64,000 nt of DNA. It comes from an uncultured Candidatus Saccharibacteria bacterium. GTDB lineage: Bacteria > Patescibacteriota > Minisyncoccia > Phycocordibacterales > CSBR16-119. The notes under the pieces were generated by a model, which saw nothing but the letters and a program-made list of their open reading frames with translations, searched no databases and was not told where the DNA came from. The DNA is taken from positions 129,512-193,511 of the forward strand of contig CAZBAG010000001.1 in NCBI GenBank assembly GCA_964490365.1, in the 5' to 3' direction. Of the stretch, positions 12,193 to 37,834 are shown piece by piece (within the stretch, counting starts at the first letter, position 1; each line of letters starts with the position of its first letter). The translations under genes were made by a program, and so were the position numbers.

Positions 12193-12702
12193 TTATTTAC
12201 ACGTCGCTGATAGATAGATTATTTCAGTAGCTTCTTTCGTTTTGTCTGGAACGAGCATATCGTCTTTATCAACAAGCGGATAGCGCAATTTAATCAAGTT
12301 CCCATCTTTTTGCATGTATTCTTCTTGTTCTTTTTGACTAGAACCTTCTACGGTGTAACTAAACACAACAGTTATCTTACCTTCGTCGACGTTACCCGAA
12401 AAGGTTCCTTCATATCCATTTGTCATATCCGGACCAGCCTGAGTTCCCTGTTTTGTTCCAAATACTGTACTGTTTTCAATCTTTAGCTCGATATATTCTT
12501 CTACTGAATACGGCGCATCTTCTGTTACTGATTGGGTACGAGCAAAACACAGCGCATTAGAAGCGGGAACTTTCGGCGTTACAACAGATTCTTCTTCCGA
12601 AATTTCTCCAGGAACAACTATAGGTTTTGTATCTAAAATAAACCAAAATACTGCTGAATACGCAGCGAGAGCAAGTATAAGAATGATAATTATTTTTTTC
12701 AT
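12193..12702 (-). CDS. Secreted hypothetical protein
   Basis: An N-terminal signal/TM segment (MKKIIIILILALAAYSAVFWFI) and no recognised domain. Confidence 0.5.
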   Translation of the reverse strand: MKKIIIILILALAAYSAVFWFILDTKPIVVPGEISEEESVVTPKVPASNALCFARTQSVTEDAPYSVEEYIELKIENSTVFGTKQGTQAGPDMTNGYEGTFSGNVDEGKITVVFSYTVEGSSQKEQEEYMQKDGNLIKLRYPLVDKDDMLVPDKTKEATEIIYLSATCK

Positions 12703-12704
12703 AT

Positions 12705-12795
12705 TTCCTAGCGAGGAGTATCGACAAGCTTGCTTGTATGATCTCCGAACGACGGAAATATACGAGACGAGCGAAGCGAGTGCTCTTATATTAAT
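12705..12795. repeat. Intergenic repeat element, copy 1 (about 85% identical over about 56 nt to the copy at 34878..34965)
   Basis: Shared core ATGATsTCCGArygACGrAAATATAyGAGACGArCGmAGyGAGTGCTCTTAT, plus a shared left edge tatttyctagcgag. Confidence 0.5.
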
Positions 12796-12813
12796 ATAAA
12801 CCTGTTTATTATA

Positions 12814-13557
12814 TTAATCTATTTTTTGAATATTTGTTAGAGCGACATCATTTCCATTTCGTGTGTATGAAAAGCTTGCTTCGCCAGCAATATGTCCGTC
12901 TTCATACTTCATAGTTCCTGTTTTTGTAGCAGGGTCAATACGTATTGCAAAGGCATAAAAAGTTCCACCAAGCACGGGCTCTTCTGGCACCAGAGAAGTA
13001 ATGTTCGCTCGTATGTATTCTGGTACTAATTTTCTGTCGTCGATATCAGAACATACAACGTCGCTAAGTTGTTGCCAGTAAGTCATATTTTCTTTATCAG
13101 AATATACGTACACACCATCACCACGATCAACAAGTGTTCCGTAGCCGACCGAGGCTGTGCCTTCGCCAAACATAATGCGAAGTTCTTGTTTTGTTATCAT
13201 TCCTTCTGACATTGCATCCCACCAGACATCAGCTATTCTTACCATCATCTCCGGAATAACAGGAGTTACTGTGCCTTCAAACGTACCAACATTCCGATCT
13301 TTTTGTGCTGGTATATTATAAAATTCTCCGGTTACCACGCCGCCTTGCAAATTCATTCGAAGCCACGCTGCGTCAACATAGTTAGAGTCCATTGTTGGGG
13401 TTTCTGTGTAGAAACAAAGTTCAACTATTTTTGGCGTTGGAATTGGATTTACTTCAGTGAATTCTCGTTCAGGAGGAGCAGTTTTTTCTTGAACACCTGA
13501 AAAAACCAGAGTGGCAATTCCAGCAACAAGTATCATAAGTAAAATGTTTTTGAACAT
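12814..13557 (-). CDS. Secreted hypothetical protein
   Basis: An N-terminal signal peptide; 247 aa; no recognised domain. Confidence 0.5.
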   Translation of the reverse strand: MFKNILLMILVAGIATLVFSGVQEKTAPPEREFTEVNPIPTPKIVELCFYTETPTMDSNYVDAAWLRMNLQGGVVTGEFYNIPAQKDRNVGTFEGTVTPVIPEMMVRIADVWWDAMSEGMITKQELRIMFGEGTASVGYGTLVDRGDGVYVYSDKENMTYWQQLSDVVCSDIDDRKLVPEYIRANITSLVPEEPVLGGTFYAFAIRIDPATKTGTMKYEDGHIAGEASFSYTRNGNDVALTNIQKID

Positions 13558-34877: not shown

Positions 34878-34965
34878 CTAGCGAGAACGCAGGAAAATTT
34901 ATTTTCATGATGTCCGAGTGACGAAAATATATGAGACGAACGCAGTGAGTGCTCTTATTTTAGAC
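34878..34965. repeat. Intergenic repeat element, copy 2 (upstream of dnaK); matches 12705..12795
   Basis: About 85% identity over the ATGATGTCCGAGTGACG...GAGTGCTCTTAT core, plus the shared tattttctagcgag edge. Confidence 0.5.
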
Positions 34966-35003
34966 ATATATTTTTTATTATTACTTTATAGTTTTTAAAT
35001 ATT

Positions 35004-35234
35004 TTATTTAATAAAAACTGACACAATTGTTGCAACTACTTGTGCCACCCCAACAAAGACCAAAGCACGGGTTAGCCTTCTCATCGCCAAAGAACCCTTA
35101 TCTGCAGAAGCAATCGCACCTCTTGTTATATTTGTGTAATCTTTTAATTGATAACCGAGTGTCTTCATTTCATCTGCAATTCTATTAAAACTTAAGTTGT
35201 GCATGATTGCCCGGTCGTCTTCTTTTGTAAACAT
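35004..35234 (-). CDS. Small hypothetical protein with a C-terminal TM helix, located between grpE and dnaK
   Basis: 76 aa, native composition, no recognised family. Confidence 0.35.
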   Translation of the reverse strand: MFTKEDDRAIMHNLSFNRIADEMKTLGYQLKDYTNITRGAIASADKGSLAMRRLTRALVFVGVAQVVATIVSVFIK

Positions 35235-35818: not shown

Positions 35819-35883
35819 AGATTTTCTTCGCTTTCGCGTGATTAATTAAATTTATAACTTGATTATATAAACTTATTTAAATT

Positions 35884-35919
35884 TTGACAAGTTTTTTATG
35901 CTCGTAAAATACTTGTCAA
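35884..35919. promoter_or_regulatory. Perfect 9-bp inverted repeat TTGACAAGT-N18-ACTTGTCAA in the divergent grpE / PaaX-like intergenic region (operator and/or overlapping -35 boxes)
   Basis: ttgacaagt at 35884-35892 and acttgtcaa at 35911-35919. A third half-site, attgtcaat, lies just before the 35944 start codon. Confidence 0.45.
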
Positions 35920-35943
35920 ATATTATAAGAATCTGCTAAAATA

Positions 35944-36474
35944 TTGTCAATGGCGAAAGTAAACAAAATCCAAGAAAAAATCCTTGAATTCCTAAACGGC
36001 AAAAAAGCCTCAGAAAAGAGTGTTTTATTTGAAGGCGTAGAAAGTACTGAGAACAGCAAGTACGCCCTTTCTAGGACGCTTAAAGGCCTTAAAGAGGGTG
36101 GTTTAGTGGAGGAAATAGAAACAGAACGATCGGCTTTCTACAAAATAACCCCTGAGGGACGAAACAAGCTCAGAAATATCCGCCTGTCTTCCCCAACAAG
36201 CTTGGTGTCTACAAACTGGGATGGTTTTTGGAGAATCGTGATCCTCGACCTTCCAGAAGATCGAAAAAGTGAAAGAAATTCCCTGCGCTATATTTTAAAA
36301 AAGGCGGGGTTTGTGTGTCTCAAAAATTCAGTTTGGTTTTCACCTTACCCGCTCGAACATTTGTTTATGAATATTAAAAAAGATATGGGACTCGGTGATG
36401 AATTGATTATTCTTGTCACACAATATATCGACCCAATTTCTGAAGAAAAGCTATTAGAGGTTTTTAAAGGGTAG
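35944..36474 (+). CDS. PaaX-like winged-helix transcriptional regulator
   Basis: An N-terminal wHTH plus a conserved WDGFW-containing C-terminal region, as in PaaX-family repressors. It is transcribed divergently from grpE. Confidence 0.5.
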   Translation: MSMAKVNKIQEKILEFLNGKKASEKSVLFEGVESTENSKYALSRTLKGLKEGGLVEEIETERSAFYKITPEGRNKLRNIRLSSPTSLVSTNWDGFWRIVILDLPEDRKSERNSLRYILKKAGFVCLKNSVWFSPYPLEHLFMNIKKDMGLGDELIILVTQYIDPISEEKLLEVFKG

Positions 36475-36916
36475 ATCTTTGAATAAGCTTAGATTGAATC
36501 CAATCTCTTAGATCACTTTTCACATTTTCAAAATCGGTGGCGTTAGACATCGCTACTTCAAGAGCTTTATTTGTAAGTTCATTTGCTGTTACATTCATTT
36601 CCATATCATTAATAATTAAAAAGAAAAGGAGAAAGGCAACAGATAATCTTTTATTTCCATTAGGGAATATATGACCTTTATTAATCTCATAAAATATAAA
36701 AGCTGCTTTATCTGATAATGTTGGATATAAATCTAAACCATCAAATTGAACTTTGGGCATTTCAATGACATTTTTTATTTTTGATTTATCAATTATTTTG
36801 TATGGTTCTATTGGCTCACCAATATCTAAAAACCTGTCGTAAAAGACATTGTAAATAACCCTAGCATTTTCCATGCTTATGTAATTAATTTGAGAGGATT
36901 TTTTCTCCTCGATCAT
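36464..36916 (-). CDS. doc: Doc/Fic-family toxin (death-on-curing)
   Basis: The Fic/Doc motif HxFx(D/N)GNKR is present as KGHIFPNGNKR; 150 aa. Confidence 0.75.
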   Translation of the reverse strand: MIEEKKSSQINYISMENARVIYNVFYDRFLDIGEPIEPYKIIDKSKIKNVIEMPKVQFDGLDLYPTLSDKAAFIFYEINKGHIFPNGNKRLSVAFLLFFLIINDMEMNVTANELTNKALEVAMSNATDFENVKSDLRDWIQSKLIQRSTL

Positions 36917-37049
36917 GACGAGCTAAATCACGAAAGGTTTTTTCGTACTTTGTAAAAATCCTATTTGACTCTTTTTCAACAGAAATGACAGATGGAGACT
37001 TATCCATCTTATTGTTATTTTTTTTAAAAATAAACCAAATATTTTTCAT
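36885..37049 (-). CDS. Putative antitoxin (54 aa) overlapping the doc start (Phd-like position)
   Basis: MKNIWFIFKKNNNKMDKSPSVISVEKESNRIFTKYEKTFRDLARHDRGEKILSN. Its stop overlaps the doc ATG by about 30 nt in the +1 frame. It falls below the ORF-track size cutoff. Confidence 0.45.
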   Translation of the reverse strand: MKNIWFIFKKNNNKMDKSPSVISVEKESNRIFTKYEKTFRDLARHDRGEKILSN

Positions 37050-37100
37050 TAGTTAAATTATACTACTTCTTAGCAACTATTTGTCAATACAGTGTTAATA

Positions 37101-37153
37101 AATATATTGACCCAATTTCTGAAGAAAAATTATTGGAAGTTTTTAAAGGATAA
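37101..37153 (+). repeat. Direct duplicate of the 3' end of the 35944..36474 gene (matches 36418..36474 at about 90%)
   Basis: ATATTGACCCAATTTCTGAAGAAAAATTATTGGAAGTTTTTAAAGGATAA matches ATATCGACCCAATTTCTGAAGAAAAGCTATTAGAGGTTTTTAAAGGGTAG and encodes the same YIDPISEEKLLEVFKG* peptide. The two copies flank the doc-antitoxin module. Confidence 0.6.
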
Positions 37154-37154
37154 G

Positions 37155-37184
37155 AAAAAGGGCGTTCCGTTTGGAACGCCCTTT
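37155..37184. terminator. Hairpin terminator (gggcgttcc gttt ggaacgccc)
   Basis: A perfect 9-bp stem with A and T runs on both sides. It lies downstream of the 37211..37834 gene on the minus strand. Confidence 0.55.
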
Positions 37185-37210
37185 GCTTCGCTTCTAGTGA
37201 GGAGTACCGA

Positions 37211-37834
37211 TCAGTAATCTCCTTCAAACATTCTGTCGAACCGCTCATCTGCGCGTCGCTGATTATCGTCATCTTCGCGTTGCTGGTCACTTACTTCTTG
37301 CATCTGATCAGCCACCTGGTCCAGAGACATGTCATCGAGCTCAGGATCTTCCTCTTCCCAAGCCCTACTTTGTTCATGACTCCACTCAAGTTGCATGATC
37401 TTGTTCGCACGACTCTCATTGGTGATCTCATGCCGAGTCCGCTTCAATACAAAGCGAGAAATCGTTGGGATATTATTTCCCTGATCATCCCACTTCGTTG
37501 AAGAGTTTACCCGGCGAACCACGATAGTGCGAGTTCCAAAGAAGTAGAACTCATCACCTTCTCTGAAGAAGGTTGCCCACGACTCGGTATTTGAGACATG
37601 GATCATGGGTCGCGGTTCACCTCGGCGGACCCTCAGAGTATCATTGAGCATCCAATGAGAGCTCACCATGGCGATCCACCAATCACTGACATCGAGATTG
37701 ATCGGAAGGCCGGCAACTTTCTTCGGGAGCACACTATCCTCGTGTTCTGTTTCAACGACCTCTCCCGCAAAGAAGTTCTTGAGACGTCCGATCAAAAGAC
37801 CCAGCACTTTATCAGAAAGAATGATCTTCTGCAT
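37211..37834 (-). CDS. Hypothetical protein with a highly acidic C-terminal tail (207 aa), GC-rich cassette gene
   Basis: G+C is elevated. It has its own TTGACA-17-TATATT promoter and its own terminator. The family is unrecognised. Confidence 0.5.
   Translation of the reverse strand: MQKIILSDKVLGLLIGRLKNFFAGEVVETEHEDSVLPKKVAGLPINLDVSDWWIAMVSSHWMLNDTLRVRRGEPRPMIHVSNTESWATFFREGDEFYFFGTRTIVVRRVNSSTKWDDQGNNIPTISRFVLKRTRHEITNESRANKIMQLEWSHEQSRAWEEEDPELDDMSLDQVADQMQEVSDQQREDDDNQRRADERFDRMFEGDY

What the first reader, a model, noticed from the sequence alone, without database searches (positions are those of the whole stretch)
36418..37184. Doc/Phd-like toxin-antitoxin module inserted with a 50-bp direct duplication of the neighbouring gene's 3' end
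36464..36916 encodes a Doc/Fic toxin (HIFPNGNKR). A 54-aa ORF (36885..37049, untracked) overlaps its start in the classic antitoxin position. The module is flanked by two 50-bp copies about 90% identical (36418..36474 and 37101..37153), each encoding YIDPISEEKLLEVFKG* from the end of the PaaX-like gene. That is the footprint of an insertion that duplicated its target. It is a small selfish element sitting next to the heat-shock locus.
Basis: seen in the sequence. Interest (0 to 1): 0.6.

Follow-up and report, generated by a model that had tools for sequence, protein, structure and literature searches.

The report
Toxin-antitoxin cassette bracketed by two gene-end alleles
A small Doc toxin-antitoxin gene pair has been inserted behind a regulator gene in an ultra-small (Patescibacteria) bacterium, and the two flanking "repeats" behave like two alleles of that gene's last 17 codons rather than a transposon footprint, a pattern that recurs at other genes and points to spread by recombination, not by an integrase.

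Summary
A 52-53 nt direct repeat (36422-36474 and 37101-37153, 88% identical) brackets a 0.63-kb AT-rich cassette. The cassette encodes a Doc-type Fic toxin (HIFPNGNKR) and a conserved 54-aa upstream partner.

It is an insertion. Close relatives have the PaaX-like gene followed directly by its terminator, and none of 79 related species loci carries the duplication.

The "target duplication" reading is only partly right. All 7 codon differences between the copies are synonymous. The relic keeps its frame and stop codon. In a sister lineage (L118) the same relic at the same junction again differs almost only at third codon positions, although it is not an ORF.

The same architecture recurs around homologous Doc cassettes at gyrB, an M16 peptidase gene, an M1 aminopeptidase gene and an ABC ATPase gene. 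At the ABC ATPase gene it forms a two-cassette array with HicAB. In total 35 of 53 differences fall at third positions (P about 1e-6).

The cassette has no integrase, inverted ends or attC.

Best reading: the cassette was imported and is exchanged by recombination between diverged relatives, leaving both alleles of the gene's 3' end. The mechanism is inferred, not shown. The partner protein is a narrow, unannotated helical family, not Phd/YefM.

The parts
35944..36474 (+). PaaX-like regulator gene (wHTH plus PaaX_M/Cas2-like domain), the target gene. It is divergent from grpE-dnaK.
   Evidence: Pfam PF20803 PaaX_M, E = 2.3e-20. There are 668 homologues, named Paceibacterota/Minisyncoccia/Nomurabacteria where a name is given. 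The start may be ATG 35953.
36422..36474 (+). Copy 1: the working last 17 codons plus stop (TAG) of the PaaX-like gene. Its last 11 nt also provide the last codons and the stop codon of doc on the other strand.
   Evidence: GC3 is 6/17, like the rest of the gene at 0.40.
36475..37100 (-). Inserted 0.63-kb cassette: promoter, 54-aa gene and doc. It is absent from empty-site relatives.
   Evidence: GC 27-29% against about 40% in the flanks. Empty sites in L038, L039, L042 and L002-5. The same cassette is 83-85% identical in L007 and L118 (alignment). No inverted terminal repeats.
36464..36916 (-). Doc-type Fic toxin gene, 150 aa. The catalytic loop is HIFPNGNKR.
   Evidence: Pfam Fic, 1.2e-9. 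A profile of 24 homologues hits PDB 9vzc 'death-on-curing family protein' at 6.3e-16 and P1 Doc 3k33 at 1.1e-3. M1 and the motif are invariant in the family, so the 150-aa start is right and the 136-aa database call is short.
36885..37049 (-). 54-aa partner gene in the antitoxin position. It overlaps the doc start by 32 nt. The predicted structure is a short N-terminal basic helix, a linker, and a kinked C-terminal helix.
   Evidence: A homologous 52-64-aa ORF lies upstream of doc in 25 of the 27 metagenome Doc loci, L007 and L118; residues F39, D41, L42, A43 and D46 are invariant in an alignment of 21 of these partner sequences. 35 representative clusters in 1.84 billion proteins, all 43-94 aa. 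AF2 gives helices 4-13, 24-34 and 36-46, with pLDDT 81-92 in the C-terminal part. No Pfam, NCBIfam or PDB family.
37057..37087 (-). Promoter-like site of the cassette: TTGACA, 19 nt, TATAAT (or TTGACA, 16 nt, TAGTAT). The -10 box ends 7 nt before the ATG, which suggests a leaderless transcript.
   Evidence: and reading of the sequence. The same arrangement is conserved in L007 and L118. Function is inferred.
37101..37153 (+). Copy 2: displaced ('relic') copy of the last 17 codons plus stop (TAA) of the PaaX-like gene, still joined to the gene's original terminator.
   Evidence: There is no start codon in its frame from 37034. The L118 counterpart is preceded by in-frame TAA TAA, and no ORF of 20 aa or more covers it. 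It aligns to the real gene end of the empty-site relative L038.
37157..37184 (.). G+C-rich hairpin: the original terminator of the PaaX-like gene, which also ends the convergent 207-aa gene.
   Evidence: 12-bp perfect inverted repeat. Terminator-like site. Empty-site relatives have an equivalent hairpin about 10 nt after the stop codon.

Best explanation
Bases 36475-37100 are a self-contained toxin-antitoxin cassette. It has its own promoter, a 54-aa helical partner protein and a Doc kinase-type toxin. It sits between the working 3' end of the PaaX-like regulator gene (copy 1) and a displaced second version of that 3' end (copy 2), which still abuts the gene's original terminator.

The two copies are two alleles of the same 17 codons, not a duplication made from one template. 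The most likely history is as follows. The cassette was first placed right after the stop codon of this conserved gene in some relative. It then entered this lineage, and is exchanged among lineages, by recombination with DNA of a diverged relative. That recombination would pair homologously in the conserved gene on one side and make a joint 51 nt upstream of the stop codon on the other side. The route could be homology-facilitated illegitimate recombination, or Campbell-type or ends-out recombination with the roughly 50-nt copy as the short arm.

This leaves donor and recipient versions of the gene end on either side of the cargo and keeps the target gene intact. Once in place, the Doc toxin would penalise loss of the cassette. 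By analogy with P1 Doc, it is presumed to phosphorylate EF-Tu and stop translation unless held by the partner's C-terminal helix.

Shown here: the insertion, the empty sites, the allelic nature of the copies, the recurrence at other genes, and the absence of recombinase or terminal sites in the cassette.

Inferred: the recombination route, DNA uptake as the vehicle, toxin activity, and addiction.
For: (1) Empty site in close relatives with conserved grpE-PaaX...Pif1 synteny. None of 79 species loci has the duplication.

(2) Copy 1 against copy 2: 7 differing codons, all synonymous, with differences by codon position [1,0,6]. Of the G/C sites, 5 of 6 at third positions changed but only 1 of 12 at first or second positions (read from the sequence).

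(3) L118 is the closest relative by Pif1 (92% aa, 83.6% nt). It has the same cassette/relic junction and a relic differing from the window's by [1,0,6]. The relic there follows in-frame stop codons, and no ORF covers it.

(4) Homologous Doc cassettes are bracketed by 37-87-nt copies of the 3' end of the neighbouring gene. Wherever both ends can be read (window, L015, L018, L019), the repeat ends exactly at the stop codon. The cases are gyrB (L018: 7 synonymous, 0 nonsynonymous), M16 peptidase (L019), M1 aminopeptidase (L021, L028) and ABC ATPase (L015, three copies separating HicAB and Doc cassettes). The cassette can lie in either orientation. 35 of 53 differences are at third positions, P = 1.2e-6.

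(5) The repeats differ between loci, so they come from the targets and not from the element.

(6) The cassette has room for only two genes, has no inverted ends, is AT-rich, and has no relatives on IMG/VR viral contigs.

(7) The targets are conserved housekeeping-type genes, which make good homology anchors between diverged genomes.

(8) Patescibacteria are reported to carry homologous-recombination genes and comEC/pili for DNA uptake (PMC12455944). [quoted passage not shown]
Against: - No donor or recipient genome pair was identified, so the direction of transfer is unknown. Copy 2 has the more cassette-like GC3 (2/17 against 6/17), but L118's relic does not.
- Cassette divergence between the window and L118 (85%) is about equal to genome divergence (83.6% in Pif1). 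This fits old vertical inheritance. Under that history a non-coding relic should have decayed, so repeated re-creation or refreshing by recombination has to be postulated.
- Recombination across about 12-20% DNA divergence with a roughly 50-nt arm is expected to be inefficient.
- The tight range of relic lengths (37-87 nt) in six loci is not obviously predicted by random illegitimate joints.
- L007 has the cassette without a relic. This may be the primary state or a secondary deletion between TAAA microhomologies.
- No empty allele was seen in the window's own population.
Confidence: 0.55

Rival explanations
1. Cargo-only satellite of a site-specific integrative element. The cassette plus one copy of the gene end is an attP-bearing mini-element that is integrated and excised by a tyrosine or serine recombinase encoded elsewhere. 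It carries a substitute 3' end so that integration does not truncate the target gene, as e14 and phage 21 do in icd.
For: The geometry matches icd/e14/icdC: the duplication runs from a crossover point to the stop codon, it preserves the coding sequence, and the differences are mostly synonymous (icd-icdC described in PMC13626634). The junction is identical in the window and L118. The tandem array in L015 resembles serial integration at one att site. Alternating integrated and excised states would explain why both copies evolve like coding sequence.
Against: The 0.63-kb insert has no recombinase gene. Closely related cassettes sit at five unrelated target sequences with no shared motif, which one site-specific enzyme would not recognise. 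The cassette lies in either orientation relative to the repeats. The cassette boundary relative to its promoter differs between loci: 51 nt from the ATG in the window and 19 nt in L018. No viral relatives were found.
Confidence: 0.15
2. Ancient single insertion inherited vertically. The relic is kept coding-like by repeated gene conversion or recombination with functional gene ends, either copy 1 in the same genome or empty alleles taken up from the population. Alternatively, cycles of RecA-mediated excision and re-insertion between the two copies keep it coding-like.
For: Window and L118 are sister lineages, both carry the cassette and relic with the same junction, and cassette divergence is similar to genome divergence. 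The repeats are long enough for occasional RecA recombination; the longest identical block is 20 nt.
Against: Copy 1 and copy 2 within the window are no closer to each other (7 differences) than either is to L118's relic (7-8 differences), so there is no sign of concerted evolution. It also does not explain how brackets arose at five different genes. This rival overlaps the best explanation, because both use homologous recombination with functional alleles.
Confidence: 0.15
3. Classical duplicative insertion. The element's insertion copied about 52 bp of target, and the copies have since diverged.
For: The direct repeats flank the insert exactly, and empty sites exist.
Against: 52-87 bp is far beyond known transposase target duplications. 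There are no terminal inverted repeats and no transposase. All 7 differences are synonymous, whereas a neutral copy should change at all codon positions. Between the window and L118, 1 of 34 first/second positions changed against 6 of 17 third positions. At a 35% neutral divergence my hand calculation gives P of about 1e-5. The same bias is seen in L018, L015 and L028.
Confidence: 0.07
4. Assembly artefact: two strain haplotypes, one with and one without the cassette, were chained into one contig.
For: The data are metagenome-assembled genomes, and several related contigs break near this locus.
Against: The junction sequence needs real reads. Three other assemblies from different runs show the same structure, two of them base-for-base. 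A diverged lineage from an unrelated sample (L118) has the same junction.
Confidence: 0.02

Closest known systems
Phd-Doc of phage P1 and chromosomal Doc toxins (Fic/DOC family, PF02661)
   Same: Fic fold signature and the Doc-type loop H-x-F-x-[DN]-[AG]-N-K-R. A small partner gene lies upstream and overlaps the toxin gene. The partner has a predicted kinked C-terminal helix, and in Phd the C-terminal inhibitory sequence alone can inhibit Doc (PMC10728895, PMC9207808).
   Different: About 25-40% identity to annotated plasmid Doc toxins. The partner is 54 aa, has no Phd/YefM or AbrB-type DNA-binding domain, and has no detectable homology to Phd. Autoregulation, if any, must work differently. 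Toxicity and EF-Tu phosphorylation are untested.
e14 / phage 21 integration into icd, leaving the icdC pseudo-3' end
   Same: The mobile DNA is bracketed by the working 3' end of a conserved gene and a displaced alternative 3' end. The two differ mostly by synonymous changes and both run to the stop codon, so the target gene stays intact (PMC13626634, citing Hill et al. 1989).
   Different: e14 is a 15-kb prophage with its own integrase and one fixed att site. Here the insert is 0.63 kb, has two genes and no recombinase, and related cassettes use at least five different genes in either orientation.
Homology-facilitated illegitimate recombination and transformation-generated duplications in naturally competent bacteria
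   Same: Foreign DNA is integrated using a one-sided homologous anchor in a conserved gene (PMC3240628). Transformation can create partial duplications by alternative pairing of repeats (PMC3784515). Patescibacteria are inferred to be competent (PMC12455944).
   Different: To my knowledge, described HFIR events usually delete recipient DNA at the illegitimate joint. A regular 37-87-nt duplication of the gene end has not, to my knowledge, been described as its outcome.
Minimal mobile elements of Neisseria (cassette slots between conserved genes, exchanged by transformation) - recalled from memory, not checked here
   Same: The slot downstream of a conserved gene holds different cargo in different strains: the TA pair, a 170-aa gene, small unknown genes, or nothing.
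   Different: As I recall them, MMEs are exchanged by double homologous recombination in both flanking genes and carry no duplicated gene end.
ParE/ParD-like module of Microcystis aeruginosa fenced by direct repeats (PMC7935541)
   Same: A chromosomal TA pair downstream of a gene, flanked by direct repeats.
   Different: Those repeats are identical, 152 bp long, intergenic and contain inverted repeats. They are not copies of the neighbouring gene's coding 3' end.

Membership tests
Doc toxin (Fic/DOC, PF02661) | Fic/DOC domain above Pfam's gathering score | tested here: met
   39.3 bits against a cutoff of 24, E = 1.2e-9.
Doc toxin (Fic/DOC, PF02661) | Doc-type catalytic loop H-x-F-x-[DN]-[AG]-N-K-R (K where AMPylating Fic proteins have G; motif from established knowledge of the family) | tested here: met
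   HIFPNGNKR at residues 82-90, invariant in 24 homologues.
Doc toxin (Fic/DOC, PF02661) | Sequence relationship to structurally solved Doc proteins | tested here: met
   The family profile hits 9vzc_A 'death-on-curing family protein' at 6.3e-16 and P1 Doc 3k33_A at 1.1e-3.
Doc toxin (Fic/DOC, PF02661) | Growth arrest by EF-Tu phosphorylation, neutralised by the partner | not testable with these tools
   Needs expression and biochemical assays.
Type II toxin-antitoxin operon | A small partner gene immediately upstream, co-oriented, conserved together with the toxin | tested here: met
   A homologous 52-64-aa ORF lies upstream of doc, with a conserved 32-nt overlap, in L007, L118 and 25 of the 27 metagenome Doc loci.
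Phd/YefM antitoxin family | Sequence homology to Phd/YefM | tested here: not met
   No Pfam hit at E <= 1. No NCBIfam family above noise. No PDB relative, only a spurious collagen-adhesin match. hhalign against P1 Phd gives probability 2%.
Phd/YefM antitoxin family | N-terminal beta/alpha DNA-binding dimerisation domain | tested here: not met
   The AF2 model has helices only (4-13, 24-34, 36-46), mean pLDDT 73.9, from a shallow alignment.
Transposon or IS insertion with target-site duplication | A short, initially identical duplication, terminal inverted repeats and a transposase | tested here: not met
   The repeat is 52 nt, 88% identical, with only synonymous differences. No inverted repeats at the cassette ends. 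Only two ORFs fit in the insert.
Integrative element with a substitute gene 3' end (e14/phage 21-icd type) | The target gene's 3' end is duplicated up to the stop codon, with coding preserved in both copies | tested here: met
   The same holds in L018, L019 and L015.
Integrative element with a substitute gene 3' end (e14/phage 21-icd type) | An element-encoded site-specific recombinase and one specific att site | tested here: not met
   No recombinase in the insert. Five unrelated target sequences. A recombinase acting in trans is not excluded.
Integrative element with a substitute gene 3' end (e14/phage 21-icd type) | Excision restoring a single hybrid gene end in the same population | not testable with these tools
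   Only filled alleles were recovered from the window's population.
Integron gene cassette | An attC recombination site at the cassette end, a promoterless cassette, and a nearby IntI/attI | tested here: not met
   No imperfect inverted-repeat site at the cassette ends. The cassette has its own promoter-like site. The repeats are locus-specific copies of the target. IntI was not searched for genome-wide.
Cassette slot exchanged by recombination (MME-like or HFIR) | Different cargo at the same position next to a conserved gene in related genomes, with empty sites also present | tested here: met
   TA pair (window, L118, L007), 170-aa gene (L006), nothing (L038, L039, L042, L002-5, L001, L010).
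Cassette slot exchanged by recombination (MME-like or HFIR) | A mosaic or donor-derived tract in the anchoring gene, and an identifiable illegitimate joint with microhomology | tested here: inconclusive
   Sliding identity of the PaaX-like gene against 9 relatives shows no clear breakpoint, because all are about 80% identical in DNA. The joint shares only 'AA'.

The most novel reading that the evidence does not exclude
Patescibacteria harbour a class of integrase-less selfish cassettes (Doc, HicAB and perhaps others) whose mobility unit is 'cargo plus a displaced allelic copy of the last 40-90 nt of a conserved host gene'. The two copies of the gene end act as portable homology arms, so the cassette behaves like a natural gene-targeting construct. 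It can enter any relative that has the gene, rebuilds the gene's 3' end on insertion, stacks into arrays, and uses toxin addiction to resist curing by transformation. This would explain why non-coding relics evolve like coding sequence.
Probability: 0.3. Interest if true: 0.75.

Novelty: new variant of a known kind. Interest (0 to 1): 0.6.

Why it matters
The toxin itself is an ordinary Doc homologue. Three other things are of interest.

First, its partner belongs to a narrow, unannotated family of roughly 55-aa helical proteins with no recognisable DNA-binding domain. It may be a minimal Doc inhibitor.

Second, and more important, is the way the cassette is embedded. Relics of the target gene's 3' end are not ORFs yet differ from the working copy almost only at synonymous sites. 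This recurs at at least five conserved genes and in a two-cassette array. That gives a sequence signature for how accessory genes move in ultra-small, uncultivated bacteria in which no integrase or transposase accompanies the cargo. It ties TA cassettes to recombination-based exchange and to the idea that transformation cures insertions (PMC4795794), since a toxin-antitoxin pair would resist such curing.

Third, the signature is a directly testable handle. It can be searched for systematically, and the excision, re-insertion or homology-arm model can be tested with read-level data and in competent model bacteria.

Tried and rejected
- Rfam scan of the window and four related loci: no family hit at all.
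- Looked for a third copy of the gene end or other bracketed cassettes in the window. The only other repeat is an unrelated one, 12738-12835 against 34907-35004.
- Tested whether copy 2 could be translated. Its frame is open from 37034 but has no start codon. In L118 it follows TAA TAA, and no ORF of 20 aa or more covers it on either strand. The antisense 68-aa ORF 37084-37290 has wobble positions in register with the relic, but it is not conserved in L118, so it was rejected.
- Looked for mosaic structure in the PaaX-like gene. It is uninformative, because all relatives are about 80% identical in DNA.
- Tried to polarise which copy is native from relatives' alleles and from GC3. Weak and contradictory.
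- Exact-protein look-ups for the window's PaaX-like protein with two different starts: not on record.
- Look-up of the 207-aa neighbour to find empty alleles in the same population: only filled alleles were found.
- Doc relatives on viral contigs: none. On plasmids: only distant Doc toxins at 25-41% identity.
- PADLOC and Pfam on the variable neighbouring genes: nothing, apart from HicA in L015 and generic Fic-domain matches for Doc.
- A possible extension of the relic homology upstream (GTGTTAAT against CTGATAAT) was judged to be chance in AT-rich sequence.
- One row of the codon table (L028) was out of frame. It was corrected and left out of the totals.
Full report
**What is there**

The window comes from a Patescibacteria (Paceibacteria/Nomurabacteria-like) genome. 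Homologues of its genes are named that way wherever a source gives a name.

Downstream of dnaK-grpE (minus strand) lies a divergent gene for a 173-176-aa regulator with a winged helix and a PaaX_M (Cas2-like) domain. It spans 35944/35953-36474, with Pfam E = 2.3e-20. Its last 17 codons plus stop occur twice, at 36422-36474 (copy 1, part of the gene) and 37101-37153 (copy 2). The repeat is 52 nt at 88% identity with spacing 679. The blastn E-value is about 1e-12. It is one of only two direct repeats in the whole window.

A 12-bp-stem G+C-rich hairpin follows copy 2 directly (37157-37184). Two minus-strand genes lie between the copies. The structure is identical in two Logan assemblies from other sequencing runs, and a third shares the same gene order.

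**The two genes**

The ORF at 36464-36916 is a Doc-type Fic protein.
- Pfam Fic scores 39.3 bits against a cutoff of 24.
- The loop is HIFPNGNKR.
- A profile of 24 homologues hits the solved 'death-on-curing family protein' 9vzc (6.3e-16) and P1 Doc 3k33 (1.1e-3).
- The family alignment shows an invariant Met1 and an N-terminus M[IT]EEKKS. The 150-aa reading is therefore correct, and the 136-aa call in the public record is too short.
- The window's protein and L007's run about 3 residues past the usual C-terminus. Their stop codon lies inside the PaaX-like gene on the other strand, giving an 11-nt convergent overlap.

The 54-aa ORF at 36885-37049 is a real, conserved partner.
- A homologous 52-64-aa ORF precedes doc, with a conserved 32-nt overlap, in 25 of the 27 Doc loci fetched from metagenomes and in L007 and L118.
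- The consensus is MKDLIRKIFKK - variable linker - TTNAVFEKYKKSFKDLARYDR.
- It has no Pfam, NCBIfam or PDB relative. hhalign against P1 Phd gives probability 2%.
- An exhaustive profile search found only 35 representative clusters, all 43-94 aa.
- AlphaFold predicts a kinked C-terminal helix (residues 24-46, pLDDT 81-92) and no beta strand.
- The role of Doc inhibitor is inferred from position, from conservation, and from the fact that Phd's C-terminal inhibitory sequence suffices to inhibit Doc (PMC10728895).

A TTGACA...TATAAT site ends 7 nt before the ATG in the window, L007 and L118. This suggests a leaderless message.

**It is an insertion**

- In L038 and L039 (94% protein identity), L042 (83%) and L002-L005 (83%), the stop codon of the PaaX-like gene is followed within about 10 nt by a terminator hairpin. 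This is exactly how copy 2 is followed in the window.
- L038, L042 and L002 keep the grpE-PaaX...Pif1 helicase synteny of the window.
- None of 79 species-representative loci with this gene has a second copy of its 3' end, and only one has a Doc homologue anywhere nearby.
- The cassette has 27-29% G+C against about 40% for the flanking genes.

**The repeats are not a target-site duplication**

Copy 1 and copy 2 differ at 7 codons, all synonymous. The differences by codon position are [1,0,6]. Of the G/C sites of copy 1, 5 of 6 at third positions are changed in copy 2, but only 1 of 12 at first or second positions, and that one is synonymous. AT-biased decay of a dead copy therefore does not explain the pattern. 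Copy 2 has no start codon in its frame.

L118 is the closest relative of the window by the neighbouring Pif1 gene (92% aa, 83.6% nt).
- It carries the same cassette joined at the same point to a relic, 'gttaataa|TACATCGAT...AGGTAA', followed by an unrelated terminator and an unrelated gene.
- That relic encodes YIDPISEEKLLEVFKR*.
- It differs from the window's relic by [1,0,6].
- It follows in-frame TAA TAA, and no ORF covers it.
- So 1 of 34 first/second positions has changed against 6 of 17 third positions. By my hand calculation, at the third-position rate this has a probability of about 1e-5 for a neutral sequence.

The relic has therefore spent most of its history as coding sequence.

L007 (Doc 83% identical) has the cassette at the same left junction but no relic. 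The promoter side abuts 'TAAAAAAGAAG' plus a terminator. This is either the primary state or a deletion between TAAA microhomologies.

**The pattern recurs**

Flank-against-flank comparison of the metagenomic Doc loci shows locus-specific brackets in L015, L018, L019 and L021, and partly in L028. That is 6 of about 14 distinct loci with adequate flanks, counting the window.

| Locus | Target gene | What the copies show |
|---|---|---|
| L018 | gyrB, convergent like the window | 16 codons, 7 synonymous and 0 nonsynonymous differences |
| L019 | M16 peptidase | 24 codons in frame, both copies end at TAA |
| L021, L028 | M1 aminopeptidase | bracketed by copies of the gene's 3' end (partial in L028) |
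| L015 | ABC-transporter ATPase | three copies of the gene end |

Target identities come, and the copy comparisons. In L015 the three copies separate a HicB/HicA-like cassette (HicA Pfam 4.8e-11) and the Doc cassette. The outermost copy is an in-frame allele over 29 codons (11 synonymous, 5 nonsynonymous) and is followed by the terminator.

Wherever both ends can be read (window, L015, L018, L019), the repeat ends exactly at the target's stop codon. The cassette can lie in either orientation. The distance from the relic to the partner gene's ATG varies (19 to about 190 nt). Summed over five loci, 35 of 53 differences are at third positions (P = 1.2e-6).

The end at the stop codon is most simply explained as the end of homology between diverged alleles.

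**Most likely mechanism**

The cassette has no room for a recombinase, no inverted ends and no attC. It has no relatives on viral contigs. The brackets are copies of unrelated, conserved host genes. The best-supported account is therefore recombination between diverged relatives, one carrying the cassette next to gene X and one not. Homologous pairing in the conserved gene would be combined with a second joint some tens of nucleotides upstream of the stop codon. The route could be HFIR (PMC3240628), or Campbell-type or ends-out recombination with the relic as a short arm. Transformation is known to generate duplications by alternative pairing (PMC3784515). This leaves both alleles of the gene end and keeps the gene intact.

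Patescibacteria are reported to have recombination genes and DNA-uptake machinery (PMC12455944). Transformation tends to cure insertions (PMC4795794), and a toxin-antitoxin pair would resist that.

These steps are inferred. What is shown is the anatomy, the empty sites, the allelic signature and the recurrence.

**What does not fit**

- Cassette divergence between the window and L118 is about the same as genome divergence. That looks like old vertical inheritance, under which the relic should have decayed. Either each lineage re-acquired the cassette through the shared junction (re-creating the relic from its own gene end), or relics are refreshed from functional alleles, or excision and re-insertion cycles occur.
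- The narrow range of relic lengths (37-87 nt) hints at a mechanistic constraint that I cannot name.
- A recombinase acting in trans, as in an e14/icd-like satellite (PMC13626634), cannot be excluded. It fits poorly with five unrelated targets and both orientations.

**Comparison and verdict**

The toxin is a new member of the Doc family. The partner is an unannotated small family and not Phd/YefM. The embedding is closest in geometry to icd/e14/icdC and in presumed process to HFIR or cassette-slot exchange. It differs from both in being integrase-less, multi-target, and regularly duplicative with allelic copies.

I rate it a new variant of known kinds and moderately to clearly interesting. 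The mechanism remains open.

Noticed in passing
L001 4599-4645; L007 603-557 (-); L006 ~2325-2353; L010 749-782: A 47-nt element, CAAATGTCCTTCGGGATTTCTCCCTTCGGGGAGGGAAAAAACAAAAA, with two UUCG-type hairpins and a TATAAT-like box in front. It lies just downstream of the PaaX-like gene, or of the cargo behind it, in four relatives. It is 100% identical between L001 and L007, although their PaaX genes are each only about 84-88% identical in DNA to the window's gene (they were not compared directly with each other). It is absent from the window and has no Rfam family. Several contigs end just after it. It may be a small RNA or a multi-copy element.
   Followed up: partly
window 12738-12835 and 34907-35004: A 101-nt direct repeat at 78% identity. 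One copy lies in the region upstream of dnaK (start 34825, minus strand). The other lies upstream of the minus-strand gene 12193-12702. It may be a shared leader or regulatory element of heat-shock genes. It has no Rfam hit and is not CIRCE-like.
   Followed up: partly
window 35878-35925 (core palindrome 35884-35919): The palindrome TTGACAAGT-N18-ACTTGTCAA lies between grpE and the PaaX-like gene and overlaps promoter-like sites on both strands. The same palindrome lies upstream of PaaX-like genes in 10 of 79 species loci, down to 48% protein identity. grpE lies within the fetched locus of 61 of 80, directly upstream of the PaaX-like gene in the closest relatives. This PaaX_M/Cas2-like-domain regulator may control the heat-shock operon in these bacteria.
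   Followed up: partly
window 37211-37834 (-): A 207-aa ORF with 49-51% G+C against about 40% background. It has no Pfam or PADLOC family and no homologue in 80 related loci. Relatives have other unknown small genes at this position between the terminator and the Pif1 helicase gene (130+124 aa, 155+154 aa, 152/168 aa). This is a second variable slot next to the first.
   Followed up: partly
window 36464-36916 and 36885-37049: The public gene calls for both cassette genes appear truncated: 136 aa for Doc and 40 aa for the partner. Family alignments support 150 aa and 54 aa. In L007 the shorter starts are not start codons.
   Followed up: yes
L007 124-555 (+) and L015 2173-2753: Other toxin-antitoxin genes sit next to the Doc cassettes: a PemK-family toxin gene in L007 beyond the small-RNA-like element, and a HicB/HicA-like pair in L015, itself bracketed by 96%-identical copies of the ABC ATPase gene end.
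   Followed up: partly
L016 575-620 and 1638-1683: A 46-nt repeat at 80% identity that duplicates the 5' coding part of a 125-aa gene and brackets a 284-aa gene. It may be the same kind of bracket, built from a gene's 5' end.
   Followed up: no
window 36475-37156 (+ strand): No terminator-like site was found on the plus strand between the PaaX-like stop codon and the hairpin at 37157. PaaX-like transcripts probably read through the whole cassette in antisense, so convergent transcription could couple the regulator and the TA operon.
   Followed up: no
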